Shown one piece after another: positions 25,670 to 44,439 of a stretch of 51,574 bases of DNA. Where the stretch lies: the IMG/VR virus record IMGVR_UViG_3300012682_000002, positions 1 to 51,574 of that record; one strand, written 5' to 3'. Positions within the stretch are counted from its first letter, which is position 1. Every line of letters starts with the position of its first letter. Origin of the DNA: a virus. The position numbers were made by a program, and so were the translations under genes. Below the pieces are notes generated by a model, which had not been told where the DNA came from, did not search any database, and saw only the letters and a program-made list of their open reading frames with translations.

Positions 25670-26614
25670 TTACCGCACCTCACTGAGCCGCCGCCGCGTT
25701 ACGACCGGCCCCCACTTCGTCTCTTCGATCTTCATGAACGCGGCAAGCGGCGCTCCGTCGCGGTACTTCGCCAGCGCCCCCGGCCCCAACACCGCCCGCT
25801 GGATGTTCTCCGGCTGCTCGCTGAACCACGCTTCGCCGTCTACACCTGCCGCGAGCAACTGAGGCGTCGCTACACATCGGCACCGAGGATGCGACGCCAT
25901 CACCGCATCCGAATCCTGCGCCTTGCCGTCGAGCGACACGCAGAGAATGCAGACTCGTCCGTCCCGCCGCGACCGCCGCACGAAGCGCGGCACGGCATCC
26001 CGGTTGGCCGCGTACGCCGCCGTCATCGCCGTCCGCCCGGCGCGCATCGTCTCCGTCGCCGCAATCGTTTCCAAGCGCGTCGCCGCCTGCTCGCTCGCTG
26101 TCTCCAAGACGCGCGCCGCGCTCAGTGCCGGCTGATCGCTCCGCAACGCCGCCGCTAGCGCCGTGCGCGTCCGCGTCACCGTGTCCCGCACCAGCGCACG
26201 CACCAGCGCCGGCAACGTCTTGCCCTGCACCGCCGCCAGTTGCGCGCGTACGTCCGCTACCGCCACCGGCTGCCAGGCAACACCGAGCGGCGCGGCCAAC
26301 ATGACGAGCCGGTGCGCCGCATCCAGCCCCGCGCCCACGGCCGCGCCCTGCGCCTGCATCAAGAGTGGCAGCACCATCGCCGCCGCATTGCCAACCACGC
26401 CGCCGAACGCTGCCGCCAGTACCCGACTCTCACGCGCCACGAACGCCGCCAACGCGCCGGGAGCAAGGGCGGCGAGCCGCATGGCGGCCGCACTTGCGTC
26501 AGCGGCTAAGCTCGGCAGCGCACGGGCGAGGTCGCCGAGCACAACGCGCATGATCGGGTCGGTGAGCGCATCAATCGCCAGGAGGAAGGCGCGCGTTTCG
26601 TCCGCGACGCTCAT
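25670..26614 (-). CDS. Head morphogenesis protein (SPP1 gp7 / Mu F-like)
   Basis: 314 aa. C-terminal DGRVCILCVSLDGK...HPRCRC is the signature of this family. Directly follows the portal gene. Confidence 0.8.
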   Translation of the reverse strand: MSVADETRAFLLAIDALTDPIMRVVLGDLARALPSLAADASAAAMRLAALAPGALAAFVARESRVLAAAFGGVVGNAAAMVLPLLMQAQGAAVGAGLDAAHRLVMLAAPLGVAWQPVAVADVRAQLAAVQGKTLPALVRALVRDTVTRTRTALAAALRSDQPALSAARVLETASEQAATRLETIAATETMRAGRTAMTAAYAANRDAVPRFVRRSRRDGRVCILCVSLDGKAQDSDAVMASHPRCRCVATPQLLAAGVDGEAWFSEQPENIQRAVLGPGALAKYRDGAPLAAFMKIEETKWGPVVTRRRLSEVR

Positions 26615-28143
26615 CCGCTTTGGTTCCCCGGCAAGAGCGCCGCCAGCCCGCGCAGCCGTCCGCCTTCCGCGTCGACCGCGCCGAGCGCCGCGTCACCAGG
26701 CGCCGCCGTGCCGTCCGCTTCCAGTTCCTCGCGCATCGCCGTGATCTGATCGGCCGTGAAGCCGCGCCGCCGCATCCGCTCCGGCCACGAAAGATCGTCC
26801 GCAGAAAGCGCCAGCTCTTGCTCCGTGGTCAGCGCCGAGCGGGTCTCGAACGGATGCCAGCGCGTCTCAATCGCCGCCGCCTTGTCGTACTGCGCGCCCG
26901 TGCCGAAGCGATTGCTCAGCCGGATCGCCAGCCGGCAGACATCCTCCCAGGCGTTCCCGAAAGTGACGGCGCGGTCGTCGACCTTCGCCACCAACCCCGA
27001 CTCGGCCGTCTTGAGCGCCTCGCCACTGGGCAAGCCGCCCTCCGGCCAGATCAGATGCAGCGGCACGCGCATCACGGCGGCAATCGTCTTCAGCTCGCGG
27101 TCGGCCGCGTCCTGGCAAGCGAGCACGTTGCCCGCCGTCAGTTGCCCGACGACGACGGGATTGGTCGGTATCATCGCCTTAAGCTGCCAGACGGCGCCCG
27201 GCGAGACGATCAACGCCTTCGGCTGGCGCGTCACCGGGTCTAGCGGCGTCTCGACATTGCTCACGTAGACCTGGCCCGCGCCCTGATAACTCATCGTCTC
27301 GGACGTGTACCAGATCCGCCGCGCATACTCGTCCTGGAGGGGGATCAAGTCGGAAAGTTCGCTATGCCCAAAGTCCGCGCCGCGCGGCCGGTTGCGGAAA
27401 GGCACGATCGGAATACCGAGCGGGCGGCCGTCCTCCGTGCGCCAGTCAATGACGCCACCATCGGGGTTGCCGTTGCTGTCGCGGTCATCGGTCCAGAGCT
27501 TCCACGCCGTCTCGTCCGGCTCTTGCGCGAACTTCTCGATCAACGCCGGCGTAAACTTGGTCAGCCGCCGTCGGTAGCGCACGATGCCACTGGAGTCGAT
27601 CTGCGGCTCCGCCCACGTCTTGTACGCCGCTGTCATCTGGTGGTAGCCGTCGTAAACGGGCATCATGGTGAGCGCATCGTGATAGGTGTACATGGGCAGG
27701 TTCGCGGCGGCATCGAAGCCGACGAGAACGTAGCTATCGCCCTTGACGAACGCCTGGCCGTGGACCGTGTTCTGGTGCTCATCCATGCGGCTATGCGCCC
27801 ACGCTTGGGCGAGCATCGTGTCGATGGCGGTATTCCCCGTCGCAAAGCCCGCCACGGCCATCCGCTCAATCAGCACGTCGATGCAAAGCGCACAGACGTT
27901 GTGCGTCGCGCCAAAGATGCGTTCGGCCCGCGTGCTCGCCTTGCGGTCGCCGAAGGTGATCAGGCGCGGATCGTCTTGGCGGCCGAGATAGTAATCCTCG
28001 TACAACTCGTAGGCCGCGTCGCGGTCATTGGCGATCCGTTCGGTGCGCGAGGCGTAGGCGATATCCACCGGACTGAGGCGCGCCGTATCCGAGCGTCCTA
28101 CCAGGCCGACGATGGCCGAACCAATCGTGTCGAGGAGGGTCAC
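26611..28143 (-). CDS. Portal protein
   Basis: 510 aa. Lies between TerL and the gp7-like gene, with ATGA-type overlaps. Confidence 0.8.
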   Translation of the reverse strand: MTLLDTIGSAIVGLVGRSDTARLSPVDIAYASRTERIANDRDAAYELYEDYYLGRQDDPRLITFGDRKASTRAERIFGATHNVCALCIDVLIERMAVAGFATGNTAIDTMLAQAWAHSRMDEHQNTVHGQAFVKGDSYVLVGFDAAANLPMYTYHDALTMMPVYDGYHQMTAAYKTWAEPQIDSSGIVRYRRRLTKFTPALIEKFAQEPDETAWKLWTDDRDSNGNPDGGVIDWRTEDGRPLGIPIVPFRNRPRGADFGHSELSDLIPLQDEYARRIWYTSETMSYQGAGQVYVSNVETPLDPVTRQPKALIVSPGAVWQLKAMIPTNPVVVGQLTAGNVLACQDAADRELKTIAAVMRVPLHLIWPEGGLPSGEALKTAESGLVAKVDDRAVTFGNAWEDVCRLAIRLSNRFGTGAQYDKAAAIETRWHPFETRSALTTEQELALSADDLSWPERMRRRGFTADQITAMREELEADGTAAPGDAALGAVDAEGGRLRGLAALLPGNQSG

Positions 28144-29366
28144 AGTTCACGCCCCCATCGATCAAACTGAAGGGAGGGGCCGCCGCCACTTGCCGCCGTG
28201 TCTGCCAGCGCCGCCGCGATCACGCAGTCGTCATGCATCCCCGGCGGCGCCCCATAGCGGACAAGGCCACTCGGCAGACGATCCATCTCGAACGCCTGCA
28301 ACTCAGCGATCAGATCGGTCCAGGTCGCAGGAAAGGTAGTTCGCCCGGTTTCGATGTTGAGCGCCAGCGTCTCGATCGCCGTCCCCTTCGTTGCGTTCGA
28401 GGTGGTGAAGCCATAGACCGGCACCCCCTCACGCTGCAACTCCTCGATGTTGGGGTCGCCGATGCTATTGCGCTCGGCGACGACCGTGGTGATCCCCCAC
28501 TTGGCAACCATCGCCTTAACCCGATCGCGCTGAATTTTCCAATCGATCTGGTTGAAGCGGTCCATATCGACGTACGCGCCGCTCACCACGTCCTTGACCA
28601 CCATAACGGTAAAGTCGTAACTCTTGCCCCAATCCAGACCGGCGACGTAGGTGCGCGGCAGCTTCGGCGGGTTCGGATCGGCCGTCGCCGCCGCCATCAC
28701 CCGGCGGAAGACGCCATTGCCGTCCTCCAGAAACTGCGCCATCACCTCTTGGGTGAAGGTCCGTTCGGGCATCTCCCGCCGCATCGCGTCGATCTCATCC
28801 ACGGCAATGAAGGGGTTCGCGTACGTCGGCATCTGCCATGACGCCCAATCGGGTTGCGCTTCATCCTGACCGCGCTGATAGAGATGCCAGAAGTAGTTAC
28901 GCCCCTTCGGCGTGCTCAAGAACCAGGCATCGCCGCGGTAATCCGCGAGCGTCGGTCGGATCACCGCCTGCCACGCTTCCTCAAGCTGACGAACCATCGC
29001 CGCCTCGTCAATGACCACCCGCGCGTACTTGCGGCCGCGCGGCGCATTCACCGAATCAAGCGACCACATATCGACGACGCCCCCCGTCACCAGTTCCACG
29101 CGGTGCTGCTGAGTATCGACGCGCGCCGTCACCGGCAAGAGGATAGCGCGGAGATCGCGCCATACTTCCGTCAGCATCGGATAGGAAGGGCTGAACCACG
29201 CGACCGGCTTACCAGCAAGCGCGGGGTGCACAATGCGTTCGATACCGAGCAAGGTTTTGCCGAACCGCCGGCCACAGCAGACGACGTTATAGCGTGCCGC
29301 TTCTCGGATCACTCGCGTCTGGGACTCGTGAGGCTGAAGCAAACGGATTGATAACGTCGTTGTCAT
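28140..29366 (-). CDS. terL: Terminase large subunit
   Basis: 408 aa. Walker A CCGRRFGKT and Walker B VVIDEAA, with a C-terminal nuclease-like half. Lies upstream of the portal gene. Confidence 0.85.
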   Translation of the reverse strand: MTTTLSIRLLQPHESQTRVIREAARYNVVCCGRRFGKTLLGIERIVHPALAGKPVAWFSPSYPMLTEVWRDLRAILLPVTARVDTQQHRVELVTGGVVDMWSLDSVNAPRGRKYARVVIDEAAMVRQLEEAWQAVIRPTLADYRGDAWFLSTPKGRNYFWHLYQRGQDEAQPDWASWQMPTYANPFIAVDEIDAMRREMPERTFTQEVMAQFLEDGNGVFRRVMAAATADPNPPKLPRTYVAGLDWGKSYDFTVMVVKDVVSGAYVDMDRFNQIDWKIQRDRVKAMVAKWGITTVVAERNSIGDPNIEELQREGVPVYGFTTSNATKGTAIETLALNIETGRTTFPATWTDLIAELQAFEMDRLPSGLVRYGAPPGMHDDCVIAAALADTAASGGGPSLQFDRWGREL

Positions 29367-37881: not shown

Positions 37882-38393
37882 CACGAAAGCTTTCCCTGAT
37901 CGACGGCATCGCGGATGGTGCTTTCGGACGGCATGGTTCGAAACGCGGACTTCACCGGCCGGCGGAACCCGTCCGACCACTCCTGATACCGGCGCTGGGA
38001 CTTGAAGAGGTTTTGCTTTCGCACCTCATCCATCATGTCGAGCCGAGGATCGTCAACCTGGCCCACGCTCGAAACCATCCCCTCGCCGATCGGCACAACG
38101 GCGTCGAGGATGCCCAACTCTTCGAACGCCGCTTGCCCGCTGGCAAGCTTCTCCATCTGGCGCTTGCCATCCGCAACTACGCGCGCATGGGCATGCCGCA
38201 TCGCCGTCTCTGCCGCCGCTTCTTCGAGCGTCGTTTGTGCGTATGTCGACGCGCGTATCTCCTTCATCACCGCGTCGCGCGCGGCTCGCATCGCCGACGC
38301 TTCATCGGCAACGTTGCCGGCCGCCTCTAAGCGGGCGATCTCCGCGCGATACGCCGTTTCCGCGGTGCTATTCCACTCGTTCATCGGGTCCAC
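37881..38393 (-). CDS. Hypothetical protein
   Basis: 170-aa helical ORF. Confidence 0.5.
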   Translation of the reverse strand: MDPMNEWNSTAETAYRAEIARLEAAGNVADEASAMRAARDAVMKEIRASTYAQTTLEEAAAETAMRHAHARVVADGKRQMEKLASGQAAFEELGILDAVVPIGEGMVSSVGQVDDPRLDMMDEVRKQNLFKSQRRYQEWSDGFRRPVKSAFRTMPSESTIRDAVDQGKLS

Positions 38394-39187
38394 TCCTTCG
38401 CGAGACTACCCAGGTTCTCCGCCGCTTCGTTCAACAACGCTGCCGTGAGCGGCTCATCCAGGAAACTACGGTCATCCGAGAACAGGGCGATCGCCCGCTC
38501 CCGTCGCGGCGCATCGGCGAGCAGATCGAGCGCCACCTTCACCGAGCGACTAAGCCGATCGCTGATGATGGTGATGTCTTCGTTCCGCCTGCGCGTCCGT
38601 TCGCCGAGTTCGGCCAACGCACCGACAAGCGTCAGTCGCTCCTCGACCACTTGATCGGCGAGGTCGGGCGCCTCGGCGCGAAGGCGCGCCATCCGCGCGT
38701 CGGTTGACTCGGCGGCGATCTTGCGGGTGCGGGCTTCGGCGTAGGCGTCGCTGAGCGGCAGACTGCCGGCCATCACTGCATCGGTGAGGTCAGGGGCATA
38801 GGTGAGGACGGTGGATGCATGAACCACACGGGAGCGATTCATACCCGCTGTCTTCGCGGCTTCTGCCTGAGAGGTGTTATTTTTTAACACCACCTGCGCC
38901 ACCACCATCGCCAGTTGCCCCTTGCTCATGTGCCGCCGGTTGACGTTGGACGAGAGGATGTAGGCGACCGGATCGTGATCGCCCAACTGCTCGAACGCCG
39001 GCTCGACGCCGGCCAGTTCGCAGGCACGGAGACGGTTGCGCCCGTCGATCAACTGGCCGTCCGTGTCGATCACGATTGGGTGGATCAAGCCGTTCGCCTT
39101 GATGTCGTCCGCCAGGTCGTGCAGCTCTTCGTCAGGCACCATCGGAAACAATGCCGCCATTGGATGTACGCGATACTCGCTTGTCAT
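38381..39187 (-). CDS. ParB N-terminal-domain DNA-binding protein
   Basis: 268 aa. HPMAALFPMVPDEELHDLADDIKANGLIHPIVI..LIDGRNRLRAC, then an HTH-like segment. RBS AGGAAAGGGGAG. Confidence 0.75.
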   Translation of the reverse strand: MTSEYRVHPMAALFPMVPDEELHDLADDIKANGLIHPIVIDTDGQLIDGRNRLRACELAGVEPAFEQLGDHDPVAYILSSNVNRRHMSKGQLAMVVAQVVLKNNTSQAEAAKTAGMNRSRVVHASTVLTYAPDLTDAVMAGSLPLSDAYAEARTRKIAAESTDARMARLRAEAPDLADQVVEERLTLVGALAELGERTRRRNEDITIISDRLSRSVKVALDLLADAPRRERAIALFSDDRSFLDEPLTAALLNEAAENLGSLAKEWTR

Positions 39188-39212
39188 ACACTCCCCTTTC
39201 CTATGCGCTTAT

Positions 39213-39284
39213 CGAAGTTCGCTCGCGCCTCGCCCCCGCGCCCCGTAAGGGGCGCAGGGGGGCGTGGGCGCGTGCGAACTGAAG
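39213..39284. repeat. Large GC-rich imperfect palindrome
   Basis: The arms pair as gttcgc/gcgaac, cgcgcc/ggcgcg, cgccccc/gggggcg and gcgcccc/ggggcgc around the loop gtaa (39245-39248). Confidence 0.7.
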
Positions 39285-39306
39285 CATTGCCGCTAGGTTG
39301 GTGGTT

Positions 39307-39466
39307 GAAGTACGTCGTGAGGTGGGTCGTCGCGGCGATTCGTCCGCCGCAACGTACTTCACGTACTTCACAAGCTTGTAAGTGAAGTACGTTATTTGAG
39401 GTCGATGGTTGGACTATTGCGTAACACATATTCTTGAAGTACGTGCTTGAAGTACGTGAAGTACGT
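39307..39466. promoter_or_regulatory. Iteron array: 7 copies of GAAGTACGT (candidate origin or parS-like site)
   Basis: Forward copies at 39307-15, 39384-92, 39436-44, 39449-57 and 39458-66. Reverse copies at 39352-60 and 39361-69. The region is AT-richer than the genome. Confidence 0.7.
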
Positions 39467-41367
39467 CAGGCATCATCCATCTCCCCTAGCCGTAGAAATG
39501 TGTACTTTCCGTCCTTCCGATCGACCTTGATCGCGCCGCTCTTCCGACCGGCGGTGATGCCGCGCTCGGCCGTTGTGCGCGGCAGTTGGTACTCCGCCAT
39601 CACCGCGTCCCGCAACTCCCCGTAGGTCATCACGCCGCGCTCGTCGAGCAGTTCGCAGGCGTGCATTAACGCTGCTGTCTCCGCTCCATAGGCTGCCGCT
39701 GTTGAGCCGATCACCGTCATCACCACCGGCTCGCCTTTGTTCGCATCTCCCTCCAACTTGTAGATTACATCGGGTGCCCTCATGCCGCCGCGTATCTTCT
39801 CGACATGGACACGCACGAGCGGATCGGTGCTGTTGCCTATCAGTTGCACATGGTTGTCGGCATTCGCCTTGAACTCGCCGCTGCCGCGCAAACGATTGCC
39901 CGGCGTTACCGTCCCTTCGCGTGGTGCTTTGTTGAGATGCTGGAGCATAATCCAGGTGACGCCCGTCTTAAGACGGATCGTACGTAGCATCTTGTGGAAG
40001 GCGGCAACGTCCCGCGAACTGTTCTCATCGCCGTCAAAGAAGCGGATCAGGCTGTCGGTGACGATCAGGTTGATGCCCCGCTCTTCGATCACGCGCGTTA
40101 GCCAGGCGGCATCCTGTGGCCGCGCGAGCCGTATCTCCGCGTCGATTACGAAGTCGACCGGGATGTCTTCATCGGCATCGATGCCCATGCCCTCGCAGAG
40201 CGCCCGTAGCCGCCGCTGCGCCTCTTGGATGCCGTTCTCCTCGTCGATGTAGAGGGCGCGGATAGGCGCCGTCTCACGGCCAAGGAACGGCATCCCACGG
40301 GCGGCATGGAGCACCAGCGCTAGCACCCACCAGGACTTGCCGAGGCCAGATTCTCCCGACAGGACGACGTAGCGGCCGCGCGGGATCGTGTCTGCTAGCA
40401 CCCATTCGATCGGCGGCAGGTCGAGGGCGCGCAGCTCGCGCGCCGTCCAGATCGTTCGGGCAGCGGTCGGCTCCGCCGCCGGCGCATCGTCGTCTTCGAG
40501 GAACGCTGTCGCTTCCCGTGTTGGTGCATACCGCCGATAGGCGCTGTTCAGGGCGGCGACGGCTTCCGATTCATCGAGCGGCGGCTTCGCGTTCGCTGCC
40601 GCCTCCCGGATCAGTCGCGCCGCCATCTCATAGGGCACGTCCGCGCCGCGCAGTTTGGCGGCGAGCCGGAAGACCTGATCGTTGCGCTGGCCCTCCGGCA
40701 CGCCGTCGAGGATGGCGCCGGTGTCGAGCCGCGAGAACGGTAATGGCTCTTTGGCTCCGTCCGTGCGCGGCAGCCAGGTGGGTACGTCCGCCAGCTCGCA
40801 CTCGTCCGGGCCATATCCGATCTCCCATGCGTAGCGCCGCCCCGAATGATGGCGCGAGGGCGGCGCGACGGCGTAGCCGCCCTCGCCGCGTACGTCCACG
40901 CCCGGCGCAATCTTGCCGGCGCTGTTGCCGATATAACCGCCGGGGTGACGGAGATAGGCATGCCAGCCGCCACCGCCGGTGAGGACGCGCCACGTCTCGG
41001 CGAGCGCGCCGTGCTCCGCCTCGAGGCGGTGGATCGACTCCTCGCCACCCTTGTCCGGGTCCACGTCGATCAGGGCCAGGCCGGAGACCGAGCCGGTGCG
41101 GATGCCGATATTCGCGCCCGGATAGGCGGACCACCACCGGCGGATCGTGGCCGTGTCCGCCGTGGCGTCGAGCACGCCGCGTGGCACGAGCGAGCCGACC
41201 GGATGCTTGGCGATCTGGGTGCAGGCGCCGTCGCCGCACTCGCATTCGCCGTCCGCGTTCGGCGCCCACACCGGGAAGACGCGTAGACCGAGCGCCGCAT
41301 AGCGCAGCGCCGCACTCCCCGTTTCGGATGGCTGGGTATCGTTCATAGGTCGGCTTGCCACAGACAC
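39466..41367 (-). CDS. Bifunctional primase-polymerase (PrimPol) fused to a RepA/DnaB-like P-loop helicase
   Basis: 633 aa. LRVFPVW..., IDVDPDKGG, GGGWHAYL and VDVRGEGGYAVAPPS form the PrimPol domain. GESGLGKSW is Walker A and LYIDEE is Walker B. Confidence 0.85.
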   Translation of the reverse strand: MSVASRPMNDTQPSETGSAALRYAALGLRVFPVWAPNADGECECGDGACTQIAKHPVGSLVPRGVLDATADTATIRRWWSAYPGANIGIRTGSVSGLALIDVDPDKGGEESIHRLEAEHGALAETWRVLTGGGGWHAYLRHPGGYIGNSAGKIAPGVDVRGEGGYAVAPPSRHHSGRRYAWEIGYGPDECELADVPTWLPRTDGAKEPLPFSRLDTGAILDGVPEGQRNDQVFRLAAKLRGADVPYEMAARLIREAAANAKPPLDESEAVAALNSAYRRYAPTREATAFLEDDDAPAAEPTAARTIWTARELRALDLPPIEWVLADTIPRGRYVVLSGESGLGKSWWVLALVLHAARGMPFLGRETAPIRALYIDEENGIQEAQRRLRALCEGMGIDADEDIPVDFVIDAEIRLARPQDAAWLTRVIEERGINLIVTDSLIRFFDGDENSSRDVAAFHKMLRTIRLKTGVTWIMLQHLNKAPREGTVTPGNRLRGSGEFKANADNHVQLIGNSTDPLVRVHVEKIRGGMRAPDVIYKLEGDANKGEPVVMTVIGSTAAAYGAETAALMHACELLDERGVMTYGELRDAVMAEYQLPRTTAERGITAGRKSGAIKVDRKDGKYTFLRLGEMDDA

Positions 41368-41430
41368 GCTCGCTCAGCGGCCATCGCGGGCGGGGGAGGA
41401 CACCCGCAACGGCCCTATTCATTCCTTCGC

Positions 41431-41895
41431 TCAGGCGGACCCGAATTCGTCGTCGTCGTCCTCATCCGCCACCGCCGCTACCGGCGCGGCCTTCTTGCGG
41501 CGCGCGCCCAGCACCTTCGTCACGTTCGAGAAGGTCTGCCCCGATTGATTCGTTTTGTCCTCGACGAGAATCCGGCAGGGTTTGCTCATCAGGCCGGCGC
41601 GGATGCCATGCGTGCCGCCCGTGGGCAGCGAGCCGTTGATGGCGAGCCACCACTCGCCCAGCACCGCCTTCGGGTGGAGTGAGGGGGTCAGGAAGCGGCG
41701 CGTGATCTTCTTGCCGGTGTACTCTCCGGGCTGGGTGATCTCGAACGTCACCTGCACCGCCGGCTTCGGTTCGCCGGTGTCGAAGTCCTTCTTTTCGTCG
41801 GCGGCGATCGCCACGATCATGGCGTCGTACGTGTCGGGGTCGATCGCCTCGTATGCGTCGCTGCTGATCAAGATATCGTCGCTGTAGGTCTGCAC
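41431..41895 (-). CDS. Putative ssDNA-binding protein (DUF669-like) with acidic C-terminal tail
   Basis: 154 aa. Ends ...ADEDDDDEFGSA. Sits immediately upstream of the primase-helicase, as in DUF669/primase modules. Confidence 0.5.
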   Translation of the reverse strand: MQTYSDDILISSDAYEAIDPDTYDAMIVAIAADEKKDFDTGEPKPAVQVTFEITQPGEYTGKKITRRFLTPSLHPKAVLGEWWLAINGSLPTGGTHGIRAGLMSKPCRILVEDKTNQSGQTFSNVTKVLGARRKKAAPVAAVADEDDDDEFGSA

Positions 41896-44143: not shown

Positions 44144-44439
44144 GCCATCACCTCCTCATAGAGATCGGCGGTACTGAGCGCCGGCGTGGCCGTGCAGCTG
44201 CAGCCGTCGGCGTGCCACGCCTCTAGCTCCCGCACATCGGCGGCGCGCTCGGTCTCCGCTGCCTGGACATTGATCCAGTGCCGCTGGCGAGGCGAGAGTC
44301 GCATCGCCTCGGCACGCCGCAACGTCGCGTAGGCGAGCAGGGCGGCGCGGCGCTGGTCGATGGCGACAGATGCGGTGGGGGCGAGTTCGCGGGCGGTTTC
44401 GCCGCGGGGGTCGGTAACGGTGAAGCAGTGGAGGATCAT
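44140..44439 (-). CDS. Hypothetical protein
   Basis: ORF 44140-44778 trimmed to ATG 44439 (ATGA overlap with the upstream stop). 99 aa. Confidence 0.5.
   Translation of the reverse strand: MILHCFTVTDPRGETARELAPTASVAIDQRRAALLAYATLRRAEAMRLSPRQRHWINVQAAETERAADVRELEAWHADGCSCTATPALSTADLYEEVMA

What the first reader, a model, noticed from the sequence alone, without database searches (positions are those of the whole stretch)
39307..39466. Seven copies of the iteron (T/G)TGAAGTACGT between the primase-helicase and ParB-like genes
GAAGTACGT occurs five times forward and twice reversed within 160 bp. This includes a head-to-tail triplet (39436-39466) and a reversed doublet (39352-39369). The stretch is much AT-richer than the genome. 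The last copy overlaps the primase-helicase stop codon.

The array lies directly downstream of the replication gene and upstream of a ParB-domain gene. It could therefore be a replication origin, a centromere-like parS array for plasmid-prophage partition, or an operator set. The integrase elsewhere in the genome makes a ParB/parS function particularly intriguing.
Basis: seen in the sequence. Interest (0 to 1): 0.62.

Follow-up and report, generated by a model that had tools for sequence, protein, structure and literature searches.

The report
Phage replication origin with iterons
The seven repeats are real and are most likely the replication start site of this temperate phage, read by a DNA-binding tail on the neighbouring primase-helicase; this is a familiar design, not a ParB partition site.

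Summary
Observation confirmed. TGAAGTACGT occurs seven times exactly (5 forward, 2 reverse) at 39306-39466 and nowhere else in this complete 51.6-kb phage genome (0.14 expected). The array holds the lowest-GC 60-160-bp stretch of the genome.

The array goes with the PrimPol-helicase gene, not with the ParB-like gene. Eight relatives (39-61% identical primase-helicases) each carry their own 9-10-bp iteron in the same layout, starting 2-28 nt after the stop codon. A 25-30-bp GC-rich palindrome follows in each. None of their called downstream genes carries a ParB-family hit. Four more distant helicase-only relatives show the same arrangement.

The last 70 residues of the helicase model confidently as a winged helix. 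Iteron divergence tracks this domain (Mantel r=0.40, p=0.018, n=9) and not the primase or helicase domains.

The genome has a repressor and an integrase but no ParA, so a ParABS system is not present.

Best reading (about 0.78): an iteron origin bound by a self-loading initiator-helicase, as in SaPI Rep/PriRep and P4 alpha. The motor differs, being RSF1010 RepA-type. Binding and origin activity are untested.

This scan has already reported the same kind of element at least 35 times on other DNA. New member of a known kind; modest interest.

The parts
39466..41367 (-). Gene for a 633-aa PrimPol / PriCT_1 / RepA-type (AAA_25) helicase / C-terminal winged-helix protein. It is the proposed initiator that reads the iterons.
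   Evidence: Pfam Prim-Pol 1.6e-41, AAA_25 5.5e-35, PriCT_1 8e-08. PHROG DNA polymerase/primase families. The only PDB sequence match of the helicase part is RSF1010 RepA 1g8y.
39469..39678 (-). Last 70 codons: the winged-helix (H1-H2-H3-beta hairpin) domain, the proposed iteron reader.
   Evidence: AlphaFold2 model of the last 110 aa gives pLDDT 91-95 over the domain, with H33-54, H59-70, H74-87, E90-96 and E99-104. All top Foldseek PDB hits are winged-helix DNA binders: HlyU/ArsR, Zalpha, SarX, Fur, TubR, probability about 1.0. Iteron distance correlates with this domain only.
39435..39466 (+). Three iterons TGAAGTACGT (39435-44, 39448-57, 39457-66). On the gene strand they read ACGTACTTCA and start at +2 from the stop codon.
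   Evidence: The same triplet, with spacings of 9 then 12-13 nt, sits at +2 to +8 (+28 in L016) in all eight relatives.
39393..39434 (.). 42-bp AT-rich spacer (38% GC by direct count), the candidate unwinding element.
   Evidence: Sequence. The lowest-GC windows of the genome fall here.
39383..39392 (+). Fourth co-oriented iteron. It faces the inverted pair across a 12-bp centre, caagcttgtaag (39371-39382).
   Evidence: (I2, I9).
39352..39370 (-). Two inverted iterons, head to tail, sharing one base.
   Evidence: I1: 19-nt perfect inverted repeat with 39448-39466. Inverted iterons sit at the equivalent offset (+98 to +123) in the relatives.
39306..39315 (+). Seventh iteron, distal and co-oriented with the first four.
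   Evidence: An equivalent copy lies at +142 to +170 in the relatives.
39216..39280 (.). GC-rich imperfect palindrome of about 27 bp per arm with a TTAC/GTAA loop and no U/T tract. It is a conserved last element of the module; its role is unresolved (ssi-like priming hairpin, cruciform or terminator).
   Evidence: RNA fold -63.5 kcal/mol, z -7.1. Equivalent palindromes occur in all eight relatives, -48 to -68 kcal/mol. In the alignment, 21 of 24 pairs are kept through double changes. No Rfam family matches. No terminator-like T tract.
38381..39187 (-). ParB-like gene (268 aa; N-terminal ParB domain plus HTH). It is the variable downstream neighbour and is probably not part of the origin.
   Evidence: Pfam ParB_N 22.6 bits, below the 26.3 cut-off. 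It aligns to Spo0J 1vz0 residues 43-178, E 1.3e-09. None of the eight relatives has a called gene with a ParB-family hit at this position.
41431..41895 (-). 154-aa gene directly upstream of the primase-helicase, conserved in position in all relatives and ending in an acidic tail (DEDDDDEFGSA). It is probably an SSB-like replication partner.
   Evidence: Alignment of the nine upstream proteins. No Pfam or PHROG hit. Weak NCBIfam hit to the NGO0469 replication-initiation family, 22 bits against a cut-off of 75.

Best explanation
The array is the phage's origin of replication, laid out as an iteron origin directly 3' of the gene for its initiator. The inferred mechanism has four steps. First, the PrimPol-helicase binds the ACGTACTTCA iterons through its C-terminal winged helix. 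Second, it assembles as hexamer(s) on the converging sets of iterons. Third, it melts the 42-bp AT-rich spacer or the short dyad centre and loads itself. Fourth, its own PrimPol domain lays the first primers, helped by the SSB-like protein encoded just upstream. The GC-rich palindrome that closes the module may act as a single-strand priming hairpin, like ssiA/ssiB of RSF1010, or as a transcription stop. Shown here: the repeats, their uniqueness and low GC; the conserved architecture in relatives; the linkage to the helicase gene; and a confident fold model giving a winged helix. Inferred only: binding, melting, self-loading and priming.
For: (1) There are seven exact copies confined to 160 bp, with none elsewhere in the complete genome. 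(2) The array contains the lowest-GC 60-160-bp stretch of the genome. (3) All eight relatives of the primase-helicase (39-61% identity) carry their own 9-10-bp iteron: ACGTCCGCCA, ACGTCCGCA, ATATCCGCCA, CCTWTCCGCA, CTATCTGCCA, ACGTCCTTCA, TATAGGCCAC. Each has the same order: three direct copies from the stop codon, one or two more direct, a short AT-rich or palindromic centre, inverted copies, distal direct copies, then a GC-rich palindrome. In each locus the array is the strongest repeat cluster. (4) The downstream gene differs between relatives (HNH, PDDEXK nuclease, deoxyribosyltransferase-like, no-hit hypotheticals), so the constant partner is the helicase gene. (5) The last 70 aa model as a winged helix with high confidence and match only wHTH DNA binders. 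(6) Iteron distance correlates with divergence of that domain (Mantel r=0.40, p=0.018) but not with the PrimPol (r=0.02) or helicase (r=-0.10) domains. L010 and L017 share one iteron although their PrimPol domains are only 27% identical, and their winged helix is their most similar domain at 60%. The Arg before 'TAE' in helix 3 is replaced by Thr or Ser only in the two phages whose iterons end in TTCA rather than (G/C)CCA or CGCA. (7) More distant helicase-only relatives whose C-terminal sequences look winged-helix-like also carry dyad iterons at their stop codon. (8) There is experimental precedent. SaPI Rep/PriRep winged-helix domains bind 6-12 iterons immediately downstream of rep, around an AT-rich centre, with iterons pointing in opposite directions (PMC9371898; bioRxiv 10.64898/2026.10.17.759575). 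The pRN1 origin lies 3' of orf904 (PMC4234260).
Against: There is no experiment: binding, melting and origin activity are all inferred. The covariation rests on nine sequences and on hand-aligned iteron consensuses, one of which (L016) I re-aligned after a first pass that gave only r=-0.29, p=0.09 on identities. The Arg-to-Thr/Ser change may be a single evolutionary event. The helicase is RepA/SF4-type. I know of no self-loading precedent for that class; in RSF1010 a separate protein, RepC, opens the origin. The ParB-like protein keeps an HTH, so binding by it is not excluded. Cumulative GC skew follows gene orientation, with its minimum at 43-45 kb, and gives no independent origin signal. The host is unknown, so promoters in the gap cannot be ruled out by the sigma-70 scan.
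Confidence: 0.78

Rival explanations
1. The repeats are a centromere-like parS array loaded by the adjacent ParB-like protein, for plasmid-prophage partition or for ParB-mediated DNA bridging or silencing.
For: The ParB-like gene starts 119 bp from the array. It aligns with Spo0J/Noc over both the N-terminal domain and the HTH (NCBIfam parB_part 6.9e-09). The iteron junction TTCACGT resembles the core of chromosomal parS (TTTCACGTGAAA, from memory).
Against: None of the called genes downstream of the array in the eight relatives carries a ParB-family Pfam hit; several have no hit at all and were not compared directly with the window's ParB-like protein. No ParA/CbiA-type ATPase exists in the complete genome. 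The phage has a repressor and a tyrosine integrase, which implies an integrated prophage. Box II reads GRNRLRA rather than GERRxRA. The Pfam and NCBIfam scores are far below the family cut-offs. Homologues of this ParB-like protein sit in the early regions of other integrase-bearing or temperate-type phages.
Confidence: 0.07
2. The repeats are operators for a transcription factor, possibly the helicase's own winged helix. They would control read-through or a promoter for the downstream DNA-modification genes, with the palindrome acting as a terminator or attenuator.
For: The array lies between two co-directional genes and is followed by a very stable hairpin 28 nt before the next start codon. 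Winged-helix proteins are commonly repressors.
Against: No sigma-70-like promoter and no T-tract terminator were found. Operators are normally 5' of the regulated gene. The downstream genes differ between relatives while the array stays tied to the helicase stop codon. An AT-rich core flanked by convergent iterons is an origin layout rather than an operator layout.
Confidence: 0.1
3. The repeats are a packaging (pac/cos) recognition array or a chance or slippage repeat without function.
For: Terminase small subunits can recognise short repeated motifs.
Against: The terminase and portal genes lie 10 kb away at 26.6-29.4 kb. Chance is excluded by the shuffles and by conservation of the architecture across nine phages with different repeat sequences.
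Confidence: 0.02

Closest known systems
SaPI / PICI pri-rep-ori replicons (Rep1, PriRep5 of Staphylococcus aureus pathogenicity islands)
   Same: The iterons lie immediately downstream of the initiator-helicase ORF. An AT-rich stretch sits inside the array, with iterons pointing in opposite directions on either side. A C-terminal winged helix in the helicase reads them. In PriRep5 the primase is fused to the helicase (PMC9371898; bioRxiv 10.64898/2026.10.17.759575).
   Different: The motor here is RSF1010 RepA-like (AAA_25, RecA fold), not SF3 or MCM-like. The iterons are 9-10 bp rather than 5-7 bp. A long GC-rich palindrome closes the module. The element is a complete temperate phage, not a satellite. 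There is no sequence similarity beyond the generic folds.
Satellite phage P4 alpha protein with ori and crr
   Same: A single polypeptide combines a primase, a helicase and a C-terminal winged-helix DNA-binding domain that reads short iterons (from memory; also named as closest known in earlier notes of this scan).
   Different: P4 alpha has a different primase domain and an SF3 helicase. P4 needs two iteron sites (ori and crr) several kb apart, whereas here there is one array and no second copy in the genome.
RSF1010 / IncQ oriV with RepA, RepB' and RepC
   Same: The helicase family is the same (RepA). RepB' primes on the hairpin-forming inverted repeats ssiA and ssiB within oriV (PMC8567376). 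From memory, RepB' is an AEP-family primase, and oriV also holds iterons and an AT-rich segment.
   Different: In RSF1010 the three activities are separate proteins and the iterons are 20 bp. Here they appear fused in one chain, with a winged helix in the place of RepC. Whether the palindrome acts as an ssi site is untested.
pRN1 ORF904 and its origin
   Same: A PrimPol-helicase-winged-helix replication protein whose cis-acting origin lies directly 3' of its own gene and includes a conserved stem-loop (PMC4234260).
   Different: It is an archaeal plasmid with an SF3 helicase. Its origin is a 100-nt stem-loop with no reported iterons.

Membership tests
Iteron origin of a self-loading initiator-helicase (SaPI/PICI, P4 type) | A cluster of short repeats immediately 3' of the initiator-helicase gene | tested here: met
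   Seven copies start at +2 from the stop codon. The same holds in eight relatives and in four distant ones.
Iteron origin of a self-loading initiator-helicase (SaPI/PICI, P4 type) | An AT-rich segment within the array, with iterons in opposite orientations on either side | tested here: met
   A 42-bp spacer at 38% GC and a 12-bp dyad centre lie between converging iterons. This is the lowest-GC stretch of the genome.
Iteron origin of a self-loading initiator-helicase (SaPI/PICI, P4 type) | [quoted passage not shown] | tested here: met
   AF2 model with pLDDT above 90 over the domain. Foldseek hits are all wHTH, but with E 3e-3 at best and none at or below 1e-3.
Iteron origin of a self-loading initiator-helicase (SaPI/PICI, P4 type) | Iteron sequence and DNA-binding domain change together across relatives | tested here: inconclusive
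   Mantel r=0.40, p=0.018 for the winged helix against about 0 for the other domains. There is an Arg to Thr/Ser change in the two phages with TTCA iterons. The sample is n=9 and the iterons were hand-aligned.
Iteron origin of a self-loading initiator-helicase (SaPI/PICI, P4 type) | Specific binding, ATP-independent melting and origin activity | not testable with these tools
   Needs EMSA or footprinting and replication assays.
Iteron origin of a self-loading initiator-helicase (SaPI/PICI, P4 type) | SF3 or MCM-like (AAA+) helicase motor | tested here: not met
   The helicase is AAA_25 and RSF1010 RepA-like. The motor class already varies among SaPI Reps (SF3 and SF6; bioRxiv 10.64898/2026.10.17.759575), so I treat it as a difference and not as disqualifying for the kind of origin.
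ParABS partition system | A ParA (Walker-type) ATPase partner | tested here: not met
   PF13614 and PF01656 give no match in the complete genome, while the controls are positive.
ParABS partition system | A ParB with CTPase N-domain motifs and an HTH, scoring as a family member | tested here: inconclusive
   It aligns to Spo0J residues 43-178 including the HTH. It scores below the Pfam cut-off (22.6 against 26.3) and far below the NCBIfam cut-offs. Box II is altered.
ParABS partition system | parS sites that travel with the parB gene | tested here: not met
   The repeats travel with the helicase gene. No called downstream gene in the eight relatives carries a ParB-family hit.

The most novel reading that the evidence does not exclude
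One polypeptide unites the three RSF1010 replication functions: an AEP primase, a RepA-type SF4 helicase and an iteron-binding initiator. It would load itself at an origin made of iterons, an AT-rich core and an ssi-like palindrome. That would be a self-loading RecA-fold (SF4) replicative helicase, a class otherwise thought to need a separate initiator or loader. The conserved palindrome would be its priming hairpin.
Probability: 0.3. Interest if true: 0.55.

Novelty: new member of a known kind. Interest (0 to 1): 0.3.

Why it matters
It pins down the likely origin and initiator of an uncultivated, actinophage-like temperate phage lineage. Its portal relatives are Streptomyces, Mycobacterium and Arthrobacter phages at 26-28% identity. 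It corrects a tempting misreading, ParB/parS, and shows that gene callers place spurious 83-92-aa ORFs over such arrays in relatives. It also provides a set of nine natural iteron/winged-helix pairs that could be used to study how origin specificity shifts. PrimPol plus RepA-type helicase fusions are very common in phages: 1379 phage records match, 540 of them Mycobacterium phages. A tested origin rule for them would therefore help annotation and vector building. The design itself is classical, so the conceptual gain is modest.

Tried and rejected
- **DNA search of isolated phages:** searching 38300-41500 found nothing. The closest cultured homologues are at or below 42% identity and partial.
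- **Profile scans of other collections:** scans of viral, genome and metagenome contigs gave mostly distant helicase-only proteins without arrays, plus one truncated close relative. Only four distant loci were informative.
- **Upstream 154-aa protein as iteron binder:** it has a weak NGO0469 'replication initiation' hit. I rejected it because it looks like an OB/SSB-type protein with a conserved acidic tail. That call rests on inference only.
- **GC skew:** it is uninformative. It follows the nearly uniform leftward transcription, with its minimum at 43-45 kb.
- **Rfam on the gap:** only sub-threshold miRNA-like hairpin hits.
- **Promoter and terminator scan:** nothing found.
- **PDB profile search with the C-terminal domain:** only non-significant hits (S25, MCM WH).
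- **Coding potential of the gap:** the ORFs overlapping it (for example 39184-39429 on the - strand, 81 aa) did not pass the GC3-minus-GC2 filter, and the ORF that starts at the ATGA overlap is only about 20 codons (read). I therefore treat the gap as non-coding.
- **First covariation pass:** with a gapped L016 iteron it was only a trend. The reported value uses a 3'-anchored re-alignment and should be read with that in mind.

Full report
**What is there**

The window is a complete 51,574-bp virus record with terminal repeats. Nearly all its genes run leftward, on the - strand. It is a temperate tailed phage:
- a CI-like repressor at 47444-47938 (+);
- a tyrosine integrase at 48219-49223 (+);
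- a large terminase at 28140-29366 and a portal at 26611-28143.

Its portal resembles those of Streptomyces, Mycobacterium and Arthrobacter phages only at 26-28% identity. No isolated phage matches at the DNA level. The host is therefore probably an actinobacterium but is not known.

**The observation**

TGAAGTACGT occurs seven times exactly between 39306 and 39466, five times forward and two reversed. It occurs nowhere else in the genome. Shuffles give 0.14 copies on average.

The array sits in the 278-bp gap between two leftward genes:
- a 633-aa PrimPol / PriCT_1 / AAA_25 protein at 39466-41367;
- a 268-aa ParB-like protein at 38381-39187.

The lowest-GC 60-, 100- and 160-bp windows of the whole genome all fall at 39350-39440, at 37-43% against 65.3%.

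**Anatomy, read on the gene strand**

The iteron reads ACGTACTTCA on the gene strand. Counting from the first base of the TGA stop, the order is:
- three direct copies at +2, +11 and +24;
- a 42-bp spacer of 38% GC;
- a fourth direct copy at +76;
- a 12-bp centre (CTTACAAGCTTG);
- two inverted copies at +98 and +107;
- a small GC hairpin;
- a seventh, direct copy at +153;
- a 65-nt GC-rich imperfect palindrome at 39216-39280 (-63.5 kcal/mol, z = -7.1, no T tract);
- a strong ribosome-binding site and the ParB-like ATG.

**Which gene does the array belong to?**

I fetched the contigs of the eight closest homologues of the primase-helicase (39-61% identity).

Every one has its own repeat directly after the stop codon: ACGTCCGCCA (twice), ACGTCCGCA, ATATCCGCCA, CCTWTCCGCA, CTATCTGCCA, ACGTCCTTCA and TATAGGCCAC.

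The order is almost superimposable on the window's:
- three direct copies at +2 to +8 (+28 in one locus), with spacing 9 then 12-13;
- usually one inverted copy near +42;
- two direct copies near +55 to +92;
- a short TATA-containing or palindromic centre;
- inverted copies near +100 to +123;
- distal direct copies.

In each locus this is the strongest 8-mer repeat cluster: 4-10 copies against 2-3 elsewhere.

Each array is followed by a 25-30-bp GC-rich palindrome (-48 to -68 kcal/mol). Its pairing is kept through double changes at 21 of 24 aligned pairs.

The next gene is different in each case: an HNH nuclease, a PDDEXK nuclease, a deoxyribosyltransferase-like protein, or proteins with no family hit. 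None of the called downstream genes carries a ParB-family Pfam hit. I did not compare the no-hit ORFs directly with the window's ParB-like protein.

The constant partner of the array is therefore the primase-helicase gene. A conserved 150-211-aa gene lies just upstream of it, and its product ends in an acidic tail, which makes it look SSB-like.

Four much more distant, helicase-only relatives have C-terminal sequences that look winged-helix-like (not modelled). They also carry dyad iterons at their stop codons. In two of them a DnaG-type zinc-finger primase gene follows.

**Who reads the repeats?**

The last 70 residues of the protein model with pLDDT above 90 as helix, helix, helix, beta-hairpin. 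All leading structural matches are winged-helix DNA binders: HlyU/ArsR, Z-alpha, SarX, Fur and TubR. The Foldseek E-values are only 3e-3 and above.

Across the nine phages, iteron distance correlates with divergence of this domain (Mantel r = 0.40, p = 0.018). It does not correlate with the PrimPol domain (r = 0.02) or the helicase domain (r = -0.10).

Two specific cases point the same way:
- The two phages that share ACGTCCGCCA have PrimPol domains only 27% identical, but winged helices 60% identical with the same wing, VVDRKEGKFT.
- The arginine preceding 'TAE' in helix 3 is Thr or Ser only in the two phages whose iterons end in TTCA rather than (G/C)CCA or CGCA.

This is suggestive, not proof. 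The sample is nine sequences. The iteron consensuses were aligned by hand. One of them was re-aligned after a first pass that showed only a trend.

**The ParB reading**

The ParB-like protein is a real, if divergent, ParB relative. It aligns with Spo0J over the N-domain and the HTH (E 1.3e-09). It scores below all curated cut-offs.

The complete genome has no ParA-type ATPase. The phage integrates. Homologues of this protein sit in the early regions of other temperate phages that carry an integrase or an Xre-type regulator.

Together with the comparative result, this makes a parS function unlikely. Binding by this protein has not been excluded.

**Comparison with known systems**

The layout is that of the SaPI/PICI replicons. 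There, the Rep or fused PriRep helicase uses a C-terminal winged helix to bind 6-12 iterons placed immediately downstream of its own ORF. The iterons surround an AT-rich centre and point in opposite directions, and the helicase loads itself (PMC9371898; bioRxiv 10.64898/2026.10.17.759575).

pRN1 likewise keeps its origin, a stem-loop, directly 3' of the PrimPol-helicase-WH gene orf904 (PMC4234260).

The difference here is the motor. The helicase domain's only PDB sequence match is RSF1010 RepA, a RecA-fold hexameric helicase rather than an SF3 or MCM enzyme.

RSF1010 offers a possible role for the palindrome. Its primase RepB' starts synthesis on the hairpin-forming repeats ssiA and ssiB inside oriV (PMC8567376, abstract).

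The window's palindrome does not contain the window's own iteron. It resembles the ACGCCCGC-type repeats of relatives. That argues the palindrome is not a winged-helix site in this phage.

**Verdict**

This is very probably the phage's replication origin, of the classical type in which iterons sit beside their initiator-helicase. It is not a partition site. The scan has already reported this kind of element at least 35 times in other genomes, and I reached the same reading independently from the data above. The element is a new member of a known kind. The one unusual feature worth testing is the RepA-type motor.

Noticed in passing
window 44436-45764 (-): The 442-aa early protein hits NCBIfam NF052498 'TIGR-Tas system RNA-guided endonuclease' at 98.1 bits (cut-off 100). 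It also hits IS110 RNA-guided transposase weakly and PHROG 'transposase'. An earlier follow-up of this scan already reads it as a TIGR-TasA system.
   Followed up: no
window 41431-41895 (-) and the equivalent genes in L010-L017: A conserved 150-211-aa gene lies directly upstream of the primase-helicase and ends in an acidic tail (for example DEDDDDEFGSA, DDEDDDLADA). It looks like an SSB-type replication partner but has no Pfam or PHROG family.
   Followed up: partly
A1 alignment, proteins P0001-P0009: The primase-helicases are domain mosaics. The PrimPol parts fall into separate types (L014, L016 and L017 are 59-69% identical to each other but 25-30% to the rest). The helicase cores stay 41-72% identical throughout. 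This suggests recombination at domain boundaries.
   Followed up: partly
L010 2583-2834, L013 5856-6125, L017 2906-3184: Gene callers placed 83-92-aa ORFs across the iteron arrays of three relatives. Their 'proteins' would be low-complexity translations of the repeats and are probably spurious.
   Followed up: partly
window 39216-39280: The GC-rich palindrome carries ACGCGCCCACGCCCCC, which resembles the ACGCCCGC-type iterons of relatives L011 and L017 rather than the window's own ACGTACTTCA. It may be a fossil of an earlier iteron specificity, or a separate element with its own constraint.
   Followed up: partly
window 47320-47440 and 48043-48147: These are the next-lowest GC stretches of the genome. 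The first lies between the leftward early operon and the repressor gene and is probably the divergent promoter/operator region. The second lies between the repressor and the integrase and is possibly attP. A single 9/10 iteron match (TGAAGTACGC, 47328-47337, - strand) lies in the first, at chance level.
   Followed up: no
L021 and L056 (distant relatives): Here the order is helicase, then iterons, then a gene with a CxxC...zinc-finger motif typical of DnaG-type primases. The origin therefore sits between the helicase and a separate primase, rather than after a fusion protein.
   Followed up: no
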